Shown here piece by piece: positions 816-13,352 of a DNA stretch of 64,000 bases (within the stretch, counting starts at the first letter, position 1; each line of letters begins with the position of its first letter). Location of the stretch: IMG/VR virus record IMGVR_UViG_3300008954_000025, positions 23,893-87,892 of that record. One strand, given 5' to 3'. The DNA is from a virus. The position numbers and the translations under genes are program-made. Under the pieces are notes generated by a model, which worked only from the letters and a program-made list of their open reading frames with translations, ran no database searches and was not told where the DNA came from.

Positions 816-864
816 TTGTCGTCCGGACAGAAATGTGGCAGCGTCCAGCTCGCGTGTCCGGACG
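816..864 (+). promoter_or_regulatory. Sigma70-like promoter with an overlapping 10-bp inverted repeat (putative operator)
   Basis: TTGTCG(816-821)-17 nt-CAGCGT(839-844) with TGn extension; CGTCCGGACA(820-829)/TGTCCGGACG(855-864). Confidence 0.5.
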
Positions 865-1048
865 GAAACCCAAGATCGGTCGTCCGCCGGGGTCCGAGTT
901 CCCCGACCGCGTCGAGATTCGCGTGCGCGCCGGCGACAAGCGCGAGCTCGCGGCGCGCTACGAAGCCGAGAACGCTGAGCGGTCGCCGCGATACCGCTTC
1001 GCCTCCATGGCGGCTTGGATGCGGCGGAAGCTCGGACTGCGGCCATGA
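854..1048 (+). CDS. Small ribbon-helix-helix-like DNA-binding protein heading the glycosyltransferase operon
   Basis: GRPPG followed by beta-strand DRVEIRV and helices ...SMAAWMRRKL; stop overlaps next ATG (ATGA). Confidence 0.55.
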   Translation: MSGRKPKIGRPPGSEFPDRVEIRVRAGDKRELAARYEAENAERSPRYRFASMAAWMRRKLGLRP

Positions 1049-2259
1049 CTCGTCGTCTGCTCCTGCACTGCGACTCGCTGTGCGCGAGCACCGGCTTCGC
1101 GGGCGTCGCGCGTACGATCATCGCCAACCTCGACGGCTGGGAGATCGACCAGGTCGGTATCAACCATCCCAACGCGCTCGATGAGCACGACCGCGTCCGC
1201 ATCTACCCGACGCGCGGCCAGACCGACCACGGCGGGCAGCTCGCGTGCGACCTGTACCTGCAGCGCGACTACGACGTCATGCTCATCGTGCAGGACCTCC
1301 ACGTCGGTGCGCAGTGGGCGCGCGGACTCCGGAGCGCGCAGGTGCAGCGCGCCCGCCAGGGTCGTAGGAAGACGCCCGTCGTCTTCTTGTTCCCCGTGGA
1401 CGGGCCGATGCTCGGCTTCACCGAGCTGGTCGACCTCGCCGACTGCGCCGTGAGCTGTACGCGATGGGGGCAGCGCGTAGTCGGTGCCCTGTCGACGTCC
1501 CGCGTGCAGGTCATCCCGCACGACGTCAGCAGCGACGCGTTCCACACGCTCCCCGAGGCGGAACGGGCGCGGCTGCACAGCAGCGTGTTCAACGTGGCGC
1601 CCGAGACACTCACGCTGCTGTCGGTGGCGGTGAACACCATCCGCAAGGACTTGTTCCAGGTGCTCCAAGGCATCGCAGCGCTGAAGGCGCGCCGCGGTCC
1701 GGTCGCCAAGATCCACTTCCACACGCCCGGCGTGCATCAGGACATGAACCTCCGTCTCATGGCGTCGGCGCTGGACCTGGTGCAAGGCATCGACTACCAG
1801 ATCGCGGACCCGTCGCTGCTGGGCGCGCCGCGCGAGGTCATCAACGAGCTCTACAACGCCGCTGACGGGCTCGTGTTCGCGTCGCGGCGCGAGGGCTGGG
1901 GTCTGCCCATGACGGAGGCGATGGCCGCAGGGACCGCGGTCGTCGCGCCCCGCTACGGGCCGTTCGAGGAGCTGCTGGCTCCGGACCGTGGGCTCCTGCA
2001 CGAGCCTGCCGGCCAGATCTGGACTGACAAGGAGCACAGGGGCCCGTGCTGGTTGTCCGACCCGGAGGCCATCGCCGACCAGCTCGAACGCCTGCTGGAC
2101 ATGCGCGGGACGCCCGAGCATCAGCAGCTCCTCGAGCGCGCCCGCGCTCGTGTGCAGCGCTTCGCCCCAGAGATTGTGGCCGAGCGCTGGCGGAAGTTGC
2201 TGTACGACGTCATGGACGGGCAGGAGCCGGCCCCGACGCCCGGCGAGGAGCTGTCATGA
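1045..2259 (+). CDS. Glycosyltransferase, GT-B fold (GT4-like)
   Basis: N-terminal TGFAGVAR; RKD motif; SRREGWGLPMTEAMAAG (E-x7-E). Confidence 0.9.
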   Translation: MTRRLLLHCDSLCASTGFAGVARTIIANLDGWEIDQVGINHPNALDEHDRVRIYPTRGQTDHGGQLACDLYLQRDYDVMLIVQDLHVGAQWARGLRSAQVQRARQGRRKTPVVFLFPVDGPMLGFTELVDLADCAVSCTRWGQRVVGALSTSRVQVIPHDVSSDAFHTLPEAERARLHSSVFNVAPETLTLLSVAVNTIRKDLFQVLQGIAALKARRGPVAKIHFHTPGVHQDMNLRLMASALDLVQGIDYQIADPSLLGAPREVINELYNAADGLVFASRREGWGLPMTEAMAAGTAVVAPRYGPFEELLAPDRGLLHEPAGQIWTDKEHRGPCWLSDPEAIADQLERLLDMRGTPEHQQLLERARARVQRFAPEIVAERWRKLLYDVMDGQEPAPTPGEELS

Positions 2260-11597: not shown

Positions 11598-12906
11598 TCG
11601 CGCACTCGCTGTCTTCGGCCACAGCCGCCCCGAACTGCTGCGTCGCGTGCTCGCGCAGGTGCCCCAGCTCGACGGCGCGAACGAGTTCGACCTGTGGTGC
11701 TTCATCGACGGCCCAAGGGAGCACGACGCGGAGCTGGTGCAGCAGTGCGAGGCTGTAGCTCGCGCCGTCGTCCCTCGGGAGCGGTTGGTCGTGCGCGGCA
11801 AGAATCTCGGTGTCGGCCTGCACCAGACCGGGGCGCGTCGATTCTTGTTCGAGGAGCAGGGCTACGACGCCGTGCTGCAAGTCGAAGACGACGTCGAGCT
11901 CTCACCCTGCGCGCTCACGGCGCTCGGCGCGCTGCACCATGCGAAGCCGGGTCTGGTAGGCCACAGCTTCATGGACACGCGCAGCTCGCGTGAGAAGCTG
12001 GGCGCGCTTCGGGACGTGCGTCCTGGAGCGGCGCTGCTGTGTGCGCTGATCACCGGCGAGGTGTACGACGCGACGGCCGGGACGATGGACGCGTACGCCG
12101 AGCGCTTCCTCATGCCGCTGCACCAGCGCGGGCGCCCGTACAAGTGGCGGGACGACGCAGCCATCCGCAAGTTCCTGTCGGACCTCGTCGGCCACGACGT
12201 GACGTCGCTGTACCCGACGAGCCAGGACGCCGTGCTGCTCGCCGCGTGCGTCGCGGCCGACGTGCCCGTCTGGTCGCCGACGGTGAACCACATTCGGCAC
12301 GTCGTCGACACTGGCGAGCACGTGCTGCCCAGCTCGGACGTGGGCATTGCCTGTCGACGGACCAAGCTCGACCTCTTCCCTGGTGCGGTGGCGGTCACTG
12401 CGCTGTCGGACCCGCAGCTGGACGACACGTCCCCTCCGCTGGGCAGCCAGCGCAGCTACCTGCACGTGAGCCTGCTGCAGCTGTACACCGAGGCCCGGCC
12501 GGAGACCGCGATTCAGTACGGCATCACGCCGGCGACGCCTGTGCTATTGGGCCTGACCGGGGGCGAGCTCCACACGGTCGAGGTCGAGCGCGCGTGGCAG
12601 GAGCGCGTGGCGTTCGACCTCCCGGCGCGGAGCTTCGGGCGCTGGTGCCCGCATGGAGGGCGGTCGTTCGCAGGCGTGGCGCGGCTGGACGATGCACTGG
12701 CCCGGGTCCCTGGGCTGCCGAGGGAAGCCGACCTGGTGCTCGTGAACGCGCCGGCCGGCAGTGCGTGCTTGCGAGCCGCGGCGCGGCGCGTCGCCCCCGG
12801 CGGCCTGCTACTGACTGACGATCCGCGTGCCCGGCCCCCTAGCGGTCCGTGGCACCGCATAGACATCGACGGCGGAGCCGCGTTCCGTCGCACGGAGGAC
12901 TCATGA
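11590..12906 (+). CDS. GT-A fold glycosyltransferase fused to a degenerate methyltransferase-like C-terminal domain
   Basis: VFGHSRPELL, FIDG, NLGVG, VEDD; C-terminal LHTVE...DLVLVN...APGGLLLTDD; TTG start overlapping upstream gene. Confidence 0.65.
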   Translation: MPDRALAVFGHSRPELLRRVLAQVPQLDGANEFDLWCFIDGPREHDAELVQQCEAVARAVVPRERLVVRGKNLGVGLHQTGARRFLFEEQGYDAVLQVEDDVELSPCALTALGALHHAKPGLVGHSFMDTRSSREKLGALRDVRPGAALLCALITGEVYDATAGTMDAYAERFLMPLHQRGRPYKWRDDAAIRKFLSDLVGHDVTSLYPTSQDAVLLAACVAADVPVWSPTVNHIRHVVDTGEHVLPSSDVGIACRRTKLDLFPGAVAVTALSDPQLDDTSPPLGSQRSYLHVSLLQLYTEARPETAIQYGITPATPVLLGLTGGELHTVEVERAWQERVAFDLPARSFGRWCPHGGRSFAGVARLDDALARVPGLPREADLVLVNAPAGSACLRAAARRVAPGGLLLTDDPRARPPSGPWHRIDIDGGAAFRRTEDS

Positions 12907-13352
12907 GCAACGTAGAAGACACCGGTGGCCGCGAGCCTGCCGAGGGGCTCCGGAAGCAGCGGCGTGCCGAGGCGGCCGCGCGCCGGCGCGCCGCGGCCAA
13001 GGATCGCCCACCCGCGGAGCCGTGTTGGGGCCAGGTGGTTGCGGTGGAGCCGGCCGACATCGACCGCTTCGCCGCCCTGCACCAGAAGTCGCAGGCCGAG
13101 CGGCTCCGGTTCGCGGACATGGCAGCCAGCGCGATGCAGCAGCTGGCCCCGCAGCTCCTGGCAATGGGCGAGGCGAACAAGGAGGTCCGCGGCGTGTTGA
13201 CGCACCTCGCCGAGAAGTATCGCATCACCCCCGAGGAGCGGGGCGCGGACGCTGTGTGGGAGCTGCTGCCGGCTGAAGGCGGCTTCGTCCGCCGCGATGA
13301 GGTCCCCGAAGTCCCGGTGCCGCCCGCGCCGGACACCCCGGACGACCCTTAG
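12903..13352 (+). CDS. Hypothetical protein
   Basis: ATG overlapping upstream stop, preceded by GGAGG; coding-like composition. Confidence 0.6.
   Translation: MSNVEDTGGREPAEGLRKQRRAEAAARRRAAAKDRPPAEPCWGQVVAVEPADIDRFAALHQKSQAERLRFADMAASAMQQLAPQLLAMGEANKEVRGVLTHLAEKYRITPEERGADAVWELLPAEGGFVRRDEVPEVPVPPAPDTPDDP

What the first reader, a model, noticed from the sequence alone, without database searches (positions are those of the whole stretch)
854..13352. 12-kb all-cytoplasmic glycosylation, methylation and sulfation cassette directly upstream of the neck/tail genes
Seen: 7 glycosyltransferases (5 GT-B-like, 2 GT-A-like), 4 methyltransferase-like genes plus one fused domain, an APS kinase and a radical SAM gene, nearly all start/stop overlapped and led by a small RHH-like gene. 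There is no flippase, O-antigen polymerase, GtrA/GtrB/GtrC-type membrane set or nucleotide-sugar synthesis gene. Known: serotype-conversion cassettes need membrane components, some mycobacteriophages glycosylate capsid and tail proteins with phage GTs, and T-even phages glycosylate DNA. Inference: the phage builds a complex, methylated and possibly sulfated glycan on a cytoplasmic substrate, most likely virion proteins given the location, or else DNA. The pathway size looks unusually large for a tailed phage.
Basis: partly seen in the sequence, partly recalled or inferred. Interest (0 to 1): 0.8.

Follow-up and report, generated by a model that had tools for sequence, protein, structure and literature searches.

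The report
Modular phage glycan-building gene cassette
An uncultured marine tailed phage carries, between its head and neck genes, a 12.5-kb block of sugar-adding and sugar-tailoring enzyme genes that its relatives also keep but with a swappable middle part, and it most likely sugar-coats the virus particle, although the target has not been shown.

Summary
The cassette is real. Window 854-13352 holds 16 genes. Seven are glycosyltransferases (5 GT-B-type, 2 GT-A-type). There is also the stump of an eighth, two well-supported SAM methyltransferases, further weak methyltransferase-like genes, an APS kinase and a radical SAM gene.

- The radical SAM gene lies on the minus strand.
- The APS kinase has a two-helix hydrophobic N-terminus, so the set is not "all-cytoplasmic".
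- No sulfotransferase was found in this 87.9-kb record, which CheckV rates 55% complete.
- The RHH call for g01 and the methyltransferase call for g12 have no database support.

New here:
- A relative at about 80% DNA identity keeps the cassette in the same order, with dN/dS 0.10-0.32. It lacks the kinase and has an intact GT61-like gene where this phage keeps only 58 codons.
- A third relative keeps both arms and the kinase. Its 4-kb centre is replaced by a deacetylase, DUF6625, two methyltransferases and a Sulfotransfer_2 enzyme.

So this is an old, selected, modular glycan locus of this phage lineage, not a recent host capture. The best reading (about 0.5) is decoration of virion proteins, as in mycobacteriophages and chloroviruses. 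Remodelling of the host envelope is the main rival. Earlier notes from this scan describe similar cassettes in many other phage genomes; none has been tested experimentally.

The parts
854..1048 (+). g01, small basic protein of 64 aa that leads the cassette; function unknown (RHH-like only by eye)
   Evidence: No match in Pfam, NCBIfam or PHROGs; PDB gave only chance-level matches, best E 0.24. 80% aa identity to sister A; dN/dS 0.10.
1045..2259 (+). g02, GT4-type (GT-B) glycosyltransferase
   Evidence: Glycos_transf_1 4.9e-13, 49.4 bits. 80% aa identity to sister A; dN/dS 0.20. Weak paralogue of g03.
2256..3437 (+). g03, GT4-type (GT-B) glycosyltransferase
   Evidence: Glyco_trans_1_4 1.5e-7, 32.2 bits. 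81% aa identity to sister A and 88% to sister B.
3437..4288 (+). g04, GT2-like (GT-A) glycosyltransferase
   Evidence: Glycos_transf_2 4.2e-5, 24.0 bits, cut-off 23.3. 86% aa identity to A and 82% to B.
4285..5046 (+). g05, APS kinase (makes PAPS) with a DUF2061-like N-terminus of two hydrophobic helices. Present here and in sister B, absent from sister A.
   Evidence: APS_kinase 1.4e-41; TIGR00455 141.8 bits against cut-off 138.7. Hydropathy. Clean gene-sized gap in A. 70% aa identity to B, dN/dS 0.19. Exact contigs from runs of 2 studies bridge both junctions.
5043..6089 (+). g06, GT4-type (GT-B) glycosyltransferase
   Evidence: Glycos_transf_1 4.8e-11, 42.9 bits. 76% aa identity to A and 80% to B.
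6086..7093 (+). g07, GT-B-like glycosyltransferase; first gene of the variable centre
   Evidence: Glyco_trans_1_2 2.5e-6, 27.9 bits, cut-off 25. 79% aa identity to A. Absent from B.
7090..7266 (+). g08, 58-codon remnant of the C-terminus of a GT61-like gene that is intact (393 aa) in sister A
   Evidence: Residues 9-46 are 79% identical to the end of L011 4579-5760(-). That ORF matches Glyco_transf_61 at 1.4e-5, 25.8 bits, cut-off 27.
7263..7838 (+). g09, class I SAM methyltransferase (Methyltransf_24)
   Evidence: 7.1e-6, 27.3 bits, cut-off 26.3. 55% aa identity to A.
7835..8395 (+). g10, unknown; weakly methyltransferase-like
   Evidence: Methyltransf_24 E 0.013, 16.8 bits, below cut-off. 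BLASTP to Corndog gp35 methyltransferase E 0.001 over 30 aa. 72% aa identity to A.
8404..9372 (-). g11, radical SAM enzyme with a short SPASM/twitch-type C-terminal cluster domain; the only minus-strand gene (frame open to 9519)
   Evidence: SPASM 1.9e-9 and Radical_SAM 2.2e-9. CX3CX2C is visible in the translation. The profile's best PDB hit is BtrN, E 0.024. Only 3 proteins in 5.8 billion. 87% aa identity to A, dN/dS 0.11.
9408..9953 (+). g12, unknown conserved protein; first gene of the right arm
   Evidence: No family match: only HEM4 at E 0.004, below cut-off. 87% aa identity to A and 83% to B; dN/dS 0.15.
9955..10593 (+). g13, class I SAM methyltransferase
   Evidence: Methyltransf_25 6.9e-15, 55.9 bits. 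62% aa identity to A and B.
10590..11597 (+). g14, GT4-type (GT-B) glycosyltransferase
   Evidence: Glyco_transf_4 2e-18, 67.4 bits; GT4-conflict 32 bits. 77% aa identity to A and B.
11590..12906 (+). g15, fusion of a GT-A glycosyltransferase (about aa 1-280) with a Methyltransf_24-like C-terminal domain
   Evidence: No direct Pfam hit. Profile search gave 767 hits; 18, 16, 4 and 4 of 40 top members match Glyco_tranf_2_3, Glycos_transf_2, GNT-I and MGAT2. The C-terminus resembles g09, BLASTP 6e-8. Only 3 near relatives in 5.8 billion.
12903..13352 (+). g16, unknown 149-aa protein; last gene before the neck genes
   Evidence: No family. 71% aa identity to A and B; dN/dS 0.24.
13381..14460 (+). 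g17, flanking structural gene. Its homologue follows the capsid gene in SPO1-like myoviruses.
   Evidence: tblastn found 651 phage records, about 32% identity, variously annotated as hypothetical protein, tail fibre or (one listed record) head-tail connector. In SP-10 it lies 460 nt after the capsid gene.

Best explanation
**What it is.** A vertically inherited, phage-owned glycan assembly and tailoring locus.

**How it most likely works.**
- The locus sits in the same orientation as the head and neck genes and its genes are translationally coupled. Late expression is inferred from this.
- Its soluble glycosyltransferases (five GT4/GT-B-type and two GT-A-type) would use the host's nucleotide sugars to build an oligosaccharide step by step.
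- SAM methyltransferases (g09, g13, the g15 C-terminal domain, perhaps g10) would O-methyl-cap it.
- A twitch-type radical SAM enzyme (g11) would alter a sugar. This step is inferred.
- The membrane-anchored APS kinase (g05) would raise the local supply of PAPS for sulfation.
  - That step is complete in a relative that also encodes a Sulfotransfer_2 enzyme.
  - In this record it has no identified transferase.

**Architecture.**
- The two arms, g01-g06 and g12-g16, are constant across the three lineages seen.
- The centre, g07-g11, is a swappable module, which would change the outer part of the glycan.

**Most likely acceptor.** One or more exposed virion proteins, glycosylated in the cytoplasm before assembly, as shown for mycobacteriophages and chloroviruses.

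**Shown:** gene families, synteny, selection and modular exchange.
**Inferred:** timing, sugar chemistry and acceptor.
For: **The genes are real and belong to the stated families.**
- Family assignments.
- Of 13 same-strand junctions, 12 overlap.

**Position in the genome.**
- The cassette lies between the capsid gene (genome 15057-16559, phrog_752 at 4.8e-83) and g17.
- In SPO1-like phages the g17 homologue directly follows the capsid gene.

**It belongs to the phage lineage.**
- Sister A is 76-84% identical in DNA along its whole contig, and the cassette is in the same order.
- Thirteen of the 14 cassette genes compared are conserved at 62-87% aa identity; g09 is at 55%.
- dN/dS is 0.10-0.32, against 0.22 for structural gene g17.
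- GC content is like the rest of the genome.

**No export or priming machinery, and no nucleotide-sugar synthesis genes.**
- No ORF with several hydrophobic segments other than the g05 N-terminus.
- No Bac_transf, Epimerase or NTP_transferase.
- No integrase or resolvase.

**The centre is modular.**
- Sister B's centre holds DUF2334/Polysacc_deac_1, DUF6625, an FkbM methyltransferase, Methyltransf_24 and Sulfotransfer_2 (4.4e-16).
- B's right arm is 98.9-99.97% identical to A, while its left arm is only 80-82% identical.

**The DUF2061-fused kinase keeps this company.** It sits inside a GT/MT cluster in 3 of the 3 contexts examined: this window, L020 and L021.

**Precedents, from passages read.**
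- Cluster O phages carry an O-methyltransferase plus three glycosyltransferases that modify capsid and tail tube (PMC11600133). In Corndog these are gp35-38, next to the capsid gene.
- Glycans sit at the C-termini of capsid and tail tube proteins (PMC12619734).
- Chlorovirus A064R is a fusion of two glycosyltransferases and a methyltransferase, and it acts in the cytoplasm (PMC7826918).
Against: - No acceptor is identified.
  - By eye I saw no Ser/Thr-rich C-terminal tail on the capsid, tube or sheath-like protein.
- No sequence similarity to the proven Corndog enzymes. The best hit is E 0.001 over 30 aa.
- The MCP-to-neck gap is also a dumping ground for unrelated insertions:
  - 20.7 kb lies between the capsid gene and g17.
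  - It includes a tRNA and the foreign fragments described in earlier notes.
  - Position alone is therefore weak evidence.
- GT4 and GT2 enzymes, a polysaccharide deacetylase and a membrane-anchored kinase are equally typical of lipid-linked envelope polysaccharide synthesis.
- Gene-content polymorphism between close relatives has been read in print as host-surface remodelling (PMC7824862, passage).
- No sulfotransferase was found here.
- The record is rated 55% complete.
- No structure prediction could be run.
Confidence: 0.5

Rival explanations
1. **Host-envelope remodelling.** The enzymes extend or re-tailor a host lipid-linked polysaccharide (capsule, O-antigen or wall glycopolymer) at the inner face of the membrane. 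The host's own priming transferase and exporter do the rest. The changed surface blocks superinfection or stops progeny phage re-adsorbing.
For: - GT4 and GT2 families, a polysaccharide deacetylase in sister B, and a kinase with a membrane anchor fit membrane-face polysaccharide chemistry.
- Polymorphic GT clusters in cyanophages are read this way in print (PMC7824862 passage; PMC12801897 passages).
- Sulfated capsules of marine bacteria have gene clusters with sulfotransferases and glycosyltransferases (PMC11641403, search listing and abstract start only).
Against: - No priming phosphoglycosyl transferase, flippase, polymerase or ABC exporter.
- No nucleotide-sugar genes, which the cyanophage clusters do have.
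- No integrase.
- The position inside the structural gene block suggests late expression, which leaves little time for export.
Confidence: 0.25
2. **A non-virion cytoplasmic product.** The cassette makes a methylated oligosaccharide on a small molecule, lipid or peptide. This would resemble a polymethylated polysaccharide or a glycosylated peptide-derived cofactor, with the radical SAM/SPASM enzyme acting on a peptide.
For: - SPASM-domain enzymes often mature peptides. Weak NCBIfam hits of g11 go to PqqE and to the mycofactocin maturase, and g13 hits MftM at E 0.0033.
- Small ORFs g01, g08 and g16 have no assigned function.
Against: - All of those hits are far below their cut-offs.
- g08 is a gene remnant.
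- The best PDB hit for the C-terminal domain is BtrN, a carbohydrate-type enzyme by my recall, not a peptide maturase.
- No precursor-peptide-like gene is conserved next to g11.
Confidence: 0.1
3. **DNA hypermodification.** The glycosyltransferases add sugars to a hydroxymethylated base of the phage DNA to escape restriction.
For: - Phage GT-A and GT-B enzymes related to LPS and teichoic-acid enzymes glycosylate 5hmC, and such clusters can lie near structural genes (bioRxiv 10.1101/2023.12.21.572611, abstract and section 9).
- Earlier notes place a C5 methyltransferase gene about 1-2 kb upstream (not tested by me).
Against: - No Tet_JBP and no thymidylate-synthase-like hydroxymethylase in the record, although the record is rated 55% complete.
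- The products reported in that paper are mono- to trisaccharides. Seven glycosyltransferases plus several methyltransferases are far more than that needs.
Confidence: 0.05
4. **For g05 alone: an auxiliary metabolic gene.** The APS kinase, together with the PAPS-reductase-domain gene at window 58348-59145, boosts assimilatory sulfate reduction. It is unrelated to the glycan.
For: - Both genes are present in the record.
- Co-occurring viral cysC and cysH are read this way in print (PMC9529941 passages).
- No sulfotransferase was found here.
- Sister A works without the kinase.
Against: - The two genes lie 53 kb apart.
- This DUF2061-fused kinase type sits inside a GT/MT cluster in 3 of 3 contexts seen, once beside a Sulfotransfer_2 gene.
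- It is inserted precisely between two GT genes, with ATGA overlaps at both ends.
Confidence: 0.25

Closest known systems
Mycobacteriophage virion glycosylation (Corndog gp35-38; Che8 gp110; Myrna). Freeman et al. 2023 was not held and is known here only through citing papers PMC11600133, PMC12363180 and PMC12619734 (passages).
   Same: Phage-encoded glycosyltransferases plus an O-methyltransferase, start/stop-coupled, inside the structural gene block next to the capsid gene. No membrane or export genes.
   Different: - No detectable sequence similarity.
- 7 glycosyltransferases against 3, mostly GT4/GT-B rather than small GT-A enzymes.
- Extra radical SAM gene, APS kinase and, in a relative, a sulfotransferase.
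- A myovirus from marine metagenomes with an unknown host.
- No glycan has been demonstrated.
Chlorovirus PBCV-1 capsid glycosylation machinery (A064R, A111/114R)
   Same: - Many virus-encoded soluble glycosyltransferases acting in the cytoplasm.
- A GT-methyltransferase fusion protein: A064R there, g15 here.
- Methylated sugars (PMC7826918 passages).
   Different: - A eukaryotic giant virus.
- No homology was tested.
- The glycan and acceptor are known there and unknown here.
Polymorphic LPS or capsular-polysaccharide GT clusters of cyanomyoviruses and jumbo phages (PMC7824862; PMC12801897)
   Same: Several GT families in one cluster, with gene content that differs between close relatives.
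   Different: - Those clusters carry nucleotide-sugar synthesis genes (epimerases, isomerases, nucleotidyltransferases). None is present here.
- Their function is also unproven.
Phage DNA sugar-hypermodification gene clusters (Pyle et al., bioRxiv 10.1101/2023.12.21.572611)
   Same: Phage GT-A and GT-B enzymes derived from envelope-polysaccharide enzymes, sometimes near structural genes.
   Different: - They depend on a 5mYOX/TET or ThyS-type enzyme, which was not found here.
- Their products are 1-3 sugars.
BtrN, the twitch-domain radical SAM dehydrogenase of butirosin biosynthesis (PDB 4M7S/4M7T). Its function is recalled, not taken from a call.
   Same: It is the best PDB hit of the g11 profile. 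The N-terminal cluster motif and the last 56 residues align, and both proteins end in the same CxxCN.
   Different: E 0.024 for the whole protein and 2.9 per domain, so this is a lead and not membership. No fold could be computed.
Viral cysC/cysH auxiliary metabolic genes (PMC9529941)
   Same: An APS kinase and a PAPS-reductase-domain gene occur in one viral genome.
   Different: Here the kinase carries a DUF2061 membrane domain, lies inside a GT/MT cassette, and in a relative lies 4.5 kb upstream of a sulfotransferase gene in the same cassette.

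Membership tests
Mycobacteriophage-type virion glycosylation system | Phage-encoded GT(s), with or without a methyltransferase, inside the virion structural gene block | tested here: met
   Corndog layout.
Mycobacteriophage-type virion glycosylation system | Homology to the proven enzymes (Corndog gp35-38) | tested here: not met
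   BLASTP of Corndog gp33-41 against all 17 proteins: best E 0.001 over 30 aa, gp35 against g10. Che8 and Myrna enzymes were not tested.
Mycobacteriophage-type virion glycosylation system | Glycan attached to the C-termini of capsid and tail-tube subunits | not testable with these tools
   By eye I saw no Ser/Thr-rich C-terminal tail on the capsid, tube or sheath-like protein. This needs MS of virions.
Serotype-conversion or O-antigen modification cassette (GtrABC; Wzx/Wzy-dependent) | Membrane flippase, polymerase or GtrA/B/C-type multi-pass proteins | tested here: not met
   A hydropathy scan of all coding-like ORFs in the 87.9-kb record found only the g05 N-terminus with more than one hydrophobic segment. 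No Bac_transf.
Serotype-conversion or O-antigen modification cassette (GtrABC; Wzx/Wzy-dependent) | Temperate phage (integrase) | tested here: not met
   PF00589 and PF00239 gave 0 matches. The record is rated 55% complete.
Phage DNA sugar-hypermodification cluster | 5mYOX/TET or ThyS-type hydroxymethylase that makes the acceptor base | tested here: not met
   PF12851 and PF00303 gave 0 matches in the record. The record is rated 55% complete.
Adenylyl-sulfate (APS) kinase, CysC | Match over the curated cut-off of the equivalog model | tested here: met
   TIGR00455 141.8 bits against cut-off 138.7. Pfam APS_kinase 142.5 bits covering positions 2-147 of 152. The GLPCSGK P-loop is invariant in 5 homologues.
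Complete glycan sulfation module (PAPS supply plus sulfotransferase) | A sulfotransferase gene | tested here: not met
   PF00685, PF13469 and PF03567 gave 0 matches in this record. tblastn of sister B's centre proteins found nothing below E 0.03. The feature is met in sister B: Sulfotransfer_2, 60.2 bits.
Radical SAM / SPASM-twitch enzymes | CX3CX2C cluster motif and a C-terminal Cys-rich auxiliary domain | tested here: met
   Radical_SAM 38.1 bits and SPASM 38.1 bits, both over their cut-offs. The motif is visible in the translation.
BtrN-like carbohydrate radical SAM dehydrogenases | Significant similarity or a shared fold | tested here: inconclusive
   Best PDB hit, but E 0.024.
GT-methyltransferase fusion enzymes (as chlorovirus A064R) | A GT domain and a SAM-methyltransferase domain in one polypeptide | tested here: inconclusive
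   - The GT-A domain rests on a transitive profile argument.
- The methyltransferase domain rests only on BLASTP 6e-8 to g09 and a Methyltransf_24 hit at E 0.049.
- By eye, the Gly-rich SAM motif is not obvious.

The most novel reading that the evidence does not exclude
This phage lineage carries a "virion serotype locus". Conserved arms build a core oligosaccharide on particle proteins. An exchangeable central module, swapped between co-occurring phages by recombination at module edges, rewrites the outer decoration. One version has GT-B, GT61, methyltransferase and radical SAM genes. The other has a deacetylase, DUF6625, methyltransferases and sulfotransferases. A dedicated membrane-anchored PAPS supply serves the sulfated versions. 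This would be the first sulfated, methylated glycan coat on a bacterial virus, and its genetics would resemble those of bacterial O-antigen loci.
Probability: 0.35. Interest if true: 0.8.

Novelty: new variant of a known kind. Interest (0 to 1): 0.6.

Why it matters
Phage-encoded glycosylation of virions is proven only in mycobacteriophages, where it changes antibody recognition. That statement comes from citing papers PMC11600133 and PMC12363180.

If this marine myovirus lineage does the same, three things follow:
- Particle glycosylation would be widespread among tailed phages, here with a pathway of seven transferases plus methylation and, in relatives, sulfation.
- It would be chemically rich and would evolve by module exchange.
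- It would bear on host recognition, defence evasion, particle stability in seawater and the carbohydrate chemistry of marine viral particles.

The finding also cautions against automatically calling viral cysC a sulfur-assimilation auxiliary gene. In the 3 contexts seen here, this fused kinase type sits in glycan cassettes.

I found no paper that holds all four terms sulfotransferase, phage genome, virion and glycosyltransferases (0 papers). None of the 15 listed papers describes such a system by title or abstract.

Earlier AI notes from this scan describe similar GT/MT/sulfotransferase cassettes in at least 99 other genomes. Within the scan, therefore, the theme is not new.

Tried and rejected
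**Searches that gave nothing useful**
- Megablast of window 1-14000 and 14000-38000 against isolated phages: no match.
- PHROGs on 10 proteins (9 cassette proteins and sister A's GT61-like ORF): only g11 hit, at 3.6e-4.
- PDB phmmer: nothing for g15; only chance-level hits (E 0.08-0.97) for g10, g12, g01 and g07; nothing for sister B's 262-aa ORF; g11 matched PqqE at 4.1e-05.
- hhalign of the tiny g12 and g10 alignments against the g13 and g09 alignments: probability 1% or less. The methyltransferase status of g12 stays open.
- Promoter and terminator scan of 1-15000: 0 promoter-like sites, and 2 terminator-like sites against 4.3 expected.
- tblastn of the cassette proteins and sister B's centre proteins on 36 APS-kinase loci of 8 kb or more: three weak hits only, on L004, L008 and L009. 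The comparison is too divergent to use.
- Genome-collection scan with the radical SAM alignment: none of 20 pattern matches was confirmed.
- Viral-contig scan with the g15 alignment: only the sister contigs.

**Ideas considered and dropped**
- An archaeal host. The leads were haloarchaeal top-named hits for the kinase domain and the Pth2 note from the earlier scan. I dropped it because the capsid, portal and terminase are SPO1-like bacterial-phage types and GTG starts with GGAGG sites are common. The host remains unknown.
- The cassette as a hotspot of sequence divergence. Rejected: sister A is 76-84% identical in DNA everywhere. Only gene content varies.

**Sequencing runs**
- No RNA holder was listed.
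- In read laying all records were contigs.
- The listed joints have sides of 20-23 letters, which the tool itself calls unreliable, so I did not use them.
- Bins without cover in X5 are not evidence.

**Sources I could not see**
- Supplementary files were not opened. The tables of Pyle et al. and of PMC9529941 may list comparable clusters.
- Freeman et al. 2023 is not held. Everything about it comes from passages in citing papers.

Full report
**Where the window lies.** The window is bases 23893-87892 of a single 87,892-bp virus record with 67.8% GC. IMG/VR classes the record as linear and CheckV rates it 55% complete. Five public runs labelled "marine metagenome", from two studies, hold the stretch. 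One of them is marked as a possible source of this DNA. No isolated phage is close at the DNA level.

Upstream of the window the record encodes these head genes:
- a large terminase;
- a portal;
- a prohead protease;
- a scaffold;
- a major capsid protein at genome 15057-16559, matching phrog_752 at 4.8e-83.

The capsid protein is about 35% identical to those of SPO1-like myoviruses. The first gene after the finding, g17, is about 32% identical to a gene that follows the capsid gene by 460 nt in Bacillus phage SP-10. In this phage 20.7 kb lies between the two genes, and the last 12.5 kb of that is the finding.

**The observation.** Choosing starts that abut the preceding stop gives 16 genes. 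Of the 13 same-strand junctions, 12 overlap by 1-8 nt.

Six proteins pass the Pfam cut-offs for glycosyltransferase families:
- g02, g03, g06 and g14 are GT4-type;
- g07 matches Glyco_trans_1_2;
- g04 matches Glycos_transf_2.

g15 has no direct Pfam hit and only three near relatives among 5.8 billion proteins. An exhaustive profile search found 767 relatives of its first ~280 residues. Of the 40 best that I scanned, 18 match Glyco_tranf_2_3, 16 Glycos_transf_2, 4 GNT-I and 4 MGAT2. Its N-terminal domain is therefore a GT-A glycosyltransferase. Its C-terminal 150 residues resemble the methyltransferase g09 (BLASTP 6e-8).

The other assignments are as follows:
- g09 and g13 are supported methyltransferases.
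- g10 is weak, at E 0.013.
- g12 is unsupported.
- g05 is an APS kinase scoring above the TIGR00455 cut-off.
- The radical SAM/SPASM gene is real but lies on the minus strand.
- Inside the cassette only g02/g03 and g09/g15-C are detectable paralogues, so the transferases are diverse and not a recent tandem array.

**What is absent.**
- No ORF in the whole record has several hydrophobic segments, except the N-terminus of g05.
- There is no initiating phosphoglycosyl transferase, NDP-sugar epimerase/dehydratase or nucleotidyltransferase.
- There is no integrase or resolvase.
- There is no Tet_JBP or thymidylate-synthase-type enzyme.
- There is no member of three sulfotransferase families.

All of these absences carry the caveat that the record is rated 55% complete.

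**Relatives.** Sister A is held as four IMG/VR contigs from three metagenomes: L001, L002, L011 and L012. Its 38.8-kb contig is 76-84% identical in DNA to this genome along its whole length, and its capsid protein is 97% identical.

Sister A carries the cassette in the same order. Thirteen of the 14 genes compared are 62-87% identical in protein, and g09 is 55% identical. Their dN/dS values are 0.10-0.32, against 0.22 for structural gene g17. The cassette is therefore at least as old as the split between these phages, and it is kept by selection.

There are two differences in gene content:
- The kinase g05 is missing from A as a clean gene-sized gap with ATGA overlaps.
- A has a 393-aa ORF between g07 and g09 that matches Glyco_transf_61 at 25.8 bits, just under the cut-off of 27. 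This phage keeps only the last 58 codons of it, as g08.

**Sister B and the sulfation question.** A metagenome contig, L020, carries part of g03, then g04, a kinase 70% identical to g05 (dN/dS 0.19), g06, and g12-g17. Between g06 and g12 it has a different 4-kb block. Pfam reads that block as follows:
- DUF2334/Polysacc_deac_1;
- DUF6625;
- an FkbM-type methyltransferase;
- Methyltransf_24;
- one unassigned ORF;
- Sulfotransfer_2, at 4.4e-16 and 60.2 bits.

From the g11/g12 gap onward, B is 98.9-99.97% identical in DNA to sister A. Its left arm is only 80-82% identical to A. B is therefore a recent recombinant with a breakpoint at the edge of the centre.

A third context, unrelated in sequence apart from the kinase, is contig L021 with 73% GC. 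There a DUF2061-APS kinase gene again lies among GT4, GT2 and methyltransferase genes. This fused kinase type thus sits in GT/MT clusters in 3 of 3 contexts examined, once with a sulfotransferase. This phage has the kinase and no recognisable transferase, and the kinase is under purifying selection. Three possibilities remain:
- An unrecognised or unassembled transferase exists.
- A host transferase is used.
- The kinase serves another purpose, as in the cysC/cysH auxiliary-gene reading of PMC9529941.

A PAPS_reduct-domain gene lies at window 58348-59145.

Exact contigs from runs of two studies bridge both junctions of g05, so the arrangement is not an assembly artefact of this one record (records 5, 18, 27 and 28).

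**The radical SAM enzyme.**
- g11 has only three relatives in 5.8 billion proteins.
- It has no relative in the genome collection, one genome for each of 185,579 species.
- Its profile's best PDB hit is BtrN, at E 0.024. Both the N-terminal cluster motif and the last 56 residues align, and both proteins end in CxxCN.
- By my recall, BtrN oxidises a sugar-like aminocyclitol.
- This is a lead towards a carbohydrate-tailoring role. It is not a demonstration of one.

**Explanation.** Four points favour a soluble pathway that works on a cytoplasmic acceptor late in infection:
- the transferases are soluble and diverse;
- there are no nucleotide-sugar, priming or export genes;
- the genes are tightly coupled in translation;
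- the cassette sits in the same orientation as the head and neck genes and has been inherited with the phage for a long time.

The only proven phage precedent is the glycosylation of mycobacteriophage capsid and tail-tube proteins. Corndog encodes a methyltransferase and three glycosyltransferases next to its capsid gene. The chlorovirus machinery is the closest in scale and has a comparable GT-methyltransferase fusion. I therefore put virion-protein decoration first, at about 0.5.

Against this reading:
- There is no similarity to the Corndog enzymes.
- No acceptor motif is evident.
- The capsid-to-neck gap also collects unrelated insertions.

The main rival, at about 0.25, is remodelling of a host envelope polysaccharide. 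This is how polymorphic GT clusters of cyanophages have been read. The membrane-anchored kinase, the deacetylase and the GT4/GT2 families would fit it equally well. DNA glycosylation (0.05) and a small-molecule or peptide product (0.1) are less likely.

**Comparison, novelty and limits.**
- I file this as a new variant of a known kind.
  - It works like the phage and chlorovirus virion-glycosylation systems.
  - It is not homologous to the tested one.
  - It is much larger, has a modular swappable centre, and is linked to PAPS supply and, in a relative, to a sulfotransferase.
- Earlier AI notes from this scan report similar GT/MT/sulfotransferase cassettes in structural operons of at least 99 other genomes. 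These are leads, not evidence, and they show that the theme is not new within the scan.
- Two literature searches found no description of a phage-encoded sulfated virion glycan.
- Structure prediction, the contig look-up tool and the protein atlas were unavailable. As a result g01, g10, g12 and g16 remain unassigned, and the contexts of the most distant homologues were not seen.

Noticed in passing
window 58348-59145 (-): A gene with a PAPS_reduct domain (Pfam 1.3e-10, 42 bits), 53 kb from the APS kinase. Together the two could be read as a cysC/cysH auxiliary pair, or this gene may be one of the phage PAPS-reductase-like genes of unknown role.
   Followed up: partly
genome 16559-37273 (window up to 13381): Compared with SPO1-like phages, where the g17 homologue follows the capsid gene by about 460 nt, this phage has 20.7 kb between the two. 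The interval holds four unassigned ORFs, a fibre-like gene, the foreign fragments noted earlier in the scan, a tRNA and the cassette.
   Followed up: partly
L020 3145-7210 (metagenome contig Ga0080013_1000458): An alternative cassette centre: DUF2334/polysaccharide deacetylase, DUF6625, FkbM methyltransferase, Methyltransf_24, an unassigned 262-aa ORF that by eye has a P-loop-like N-terminus, and Sulfotransfer_2. The contig is 99-100% identical to sister A to the right of the centre and 80-82% identical to the left.
   Followed up: yes
L021 1-8818 (metagenome contig Ga0180431_10013369, 73% GC): An unrelated high-GC contig in which a DUF2061-APS kinase gene lies among a GT4 gene, a 1017-aa frame with Methyltransf_23, Glycos_transf_2 and Glyco_trans_1_2 domains, and another methyltransferase gene. 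Whether it is a phage or a cell is unknown.
   Followed up: partly
window 733-808 (+): A tRNA-Leu (anticodon aag) lies 25-46 nt upstream of g01. Homology to sister A resumes exactly at 808, and the 200-808 segment differs between the two phages.
   Followed up: no
L001/L002 starts and L011 end (sister A contigs): Independent assemblies of the sister phage break inside g14/g15. The two contigs from one metagenome overlap there by about 110 nt. This may point to strain variation at that spot.
   Followed up: no
window 13113-13118 (g16): Contigs in runs X2 and X3 carry small insertions here (table 4). These are probably a related strain's g16 allele.
   Followed up: no
one search hit list: The best named hits of the kinase domain of g05 are haloarchaeal CTP_transf_like-APS kinase fusions, at about 50% identity over 55-66% of the query. 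The head genes of the phage are of bacterial-phage type. The host is unknown.
   Followed up: partly
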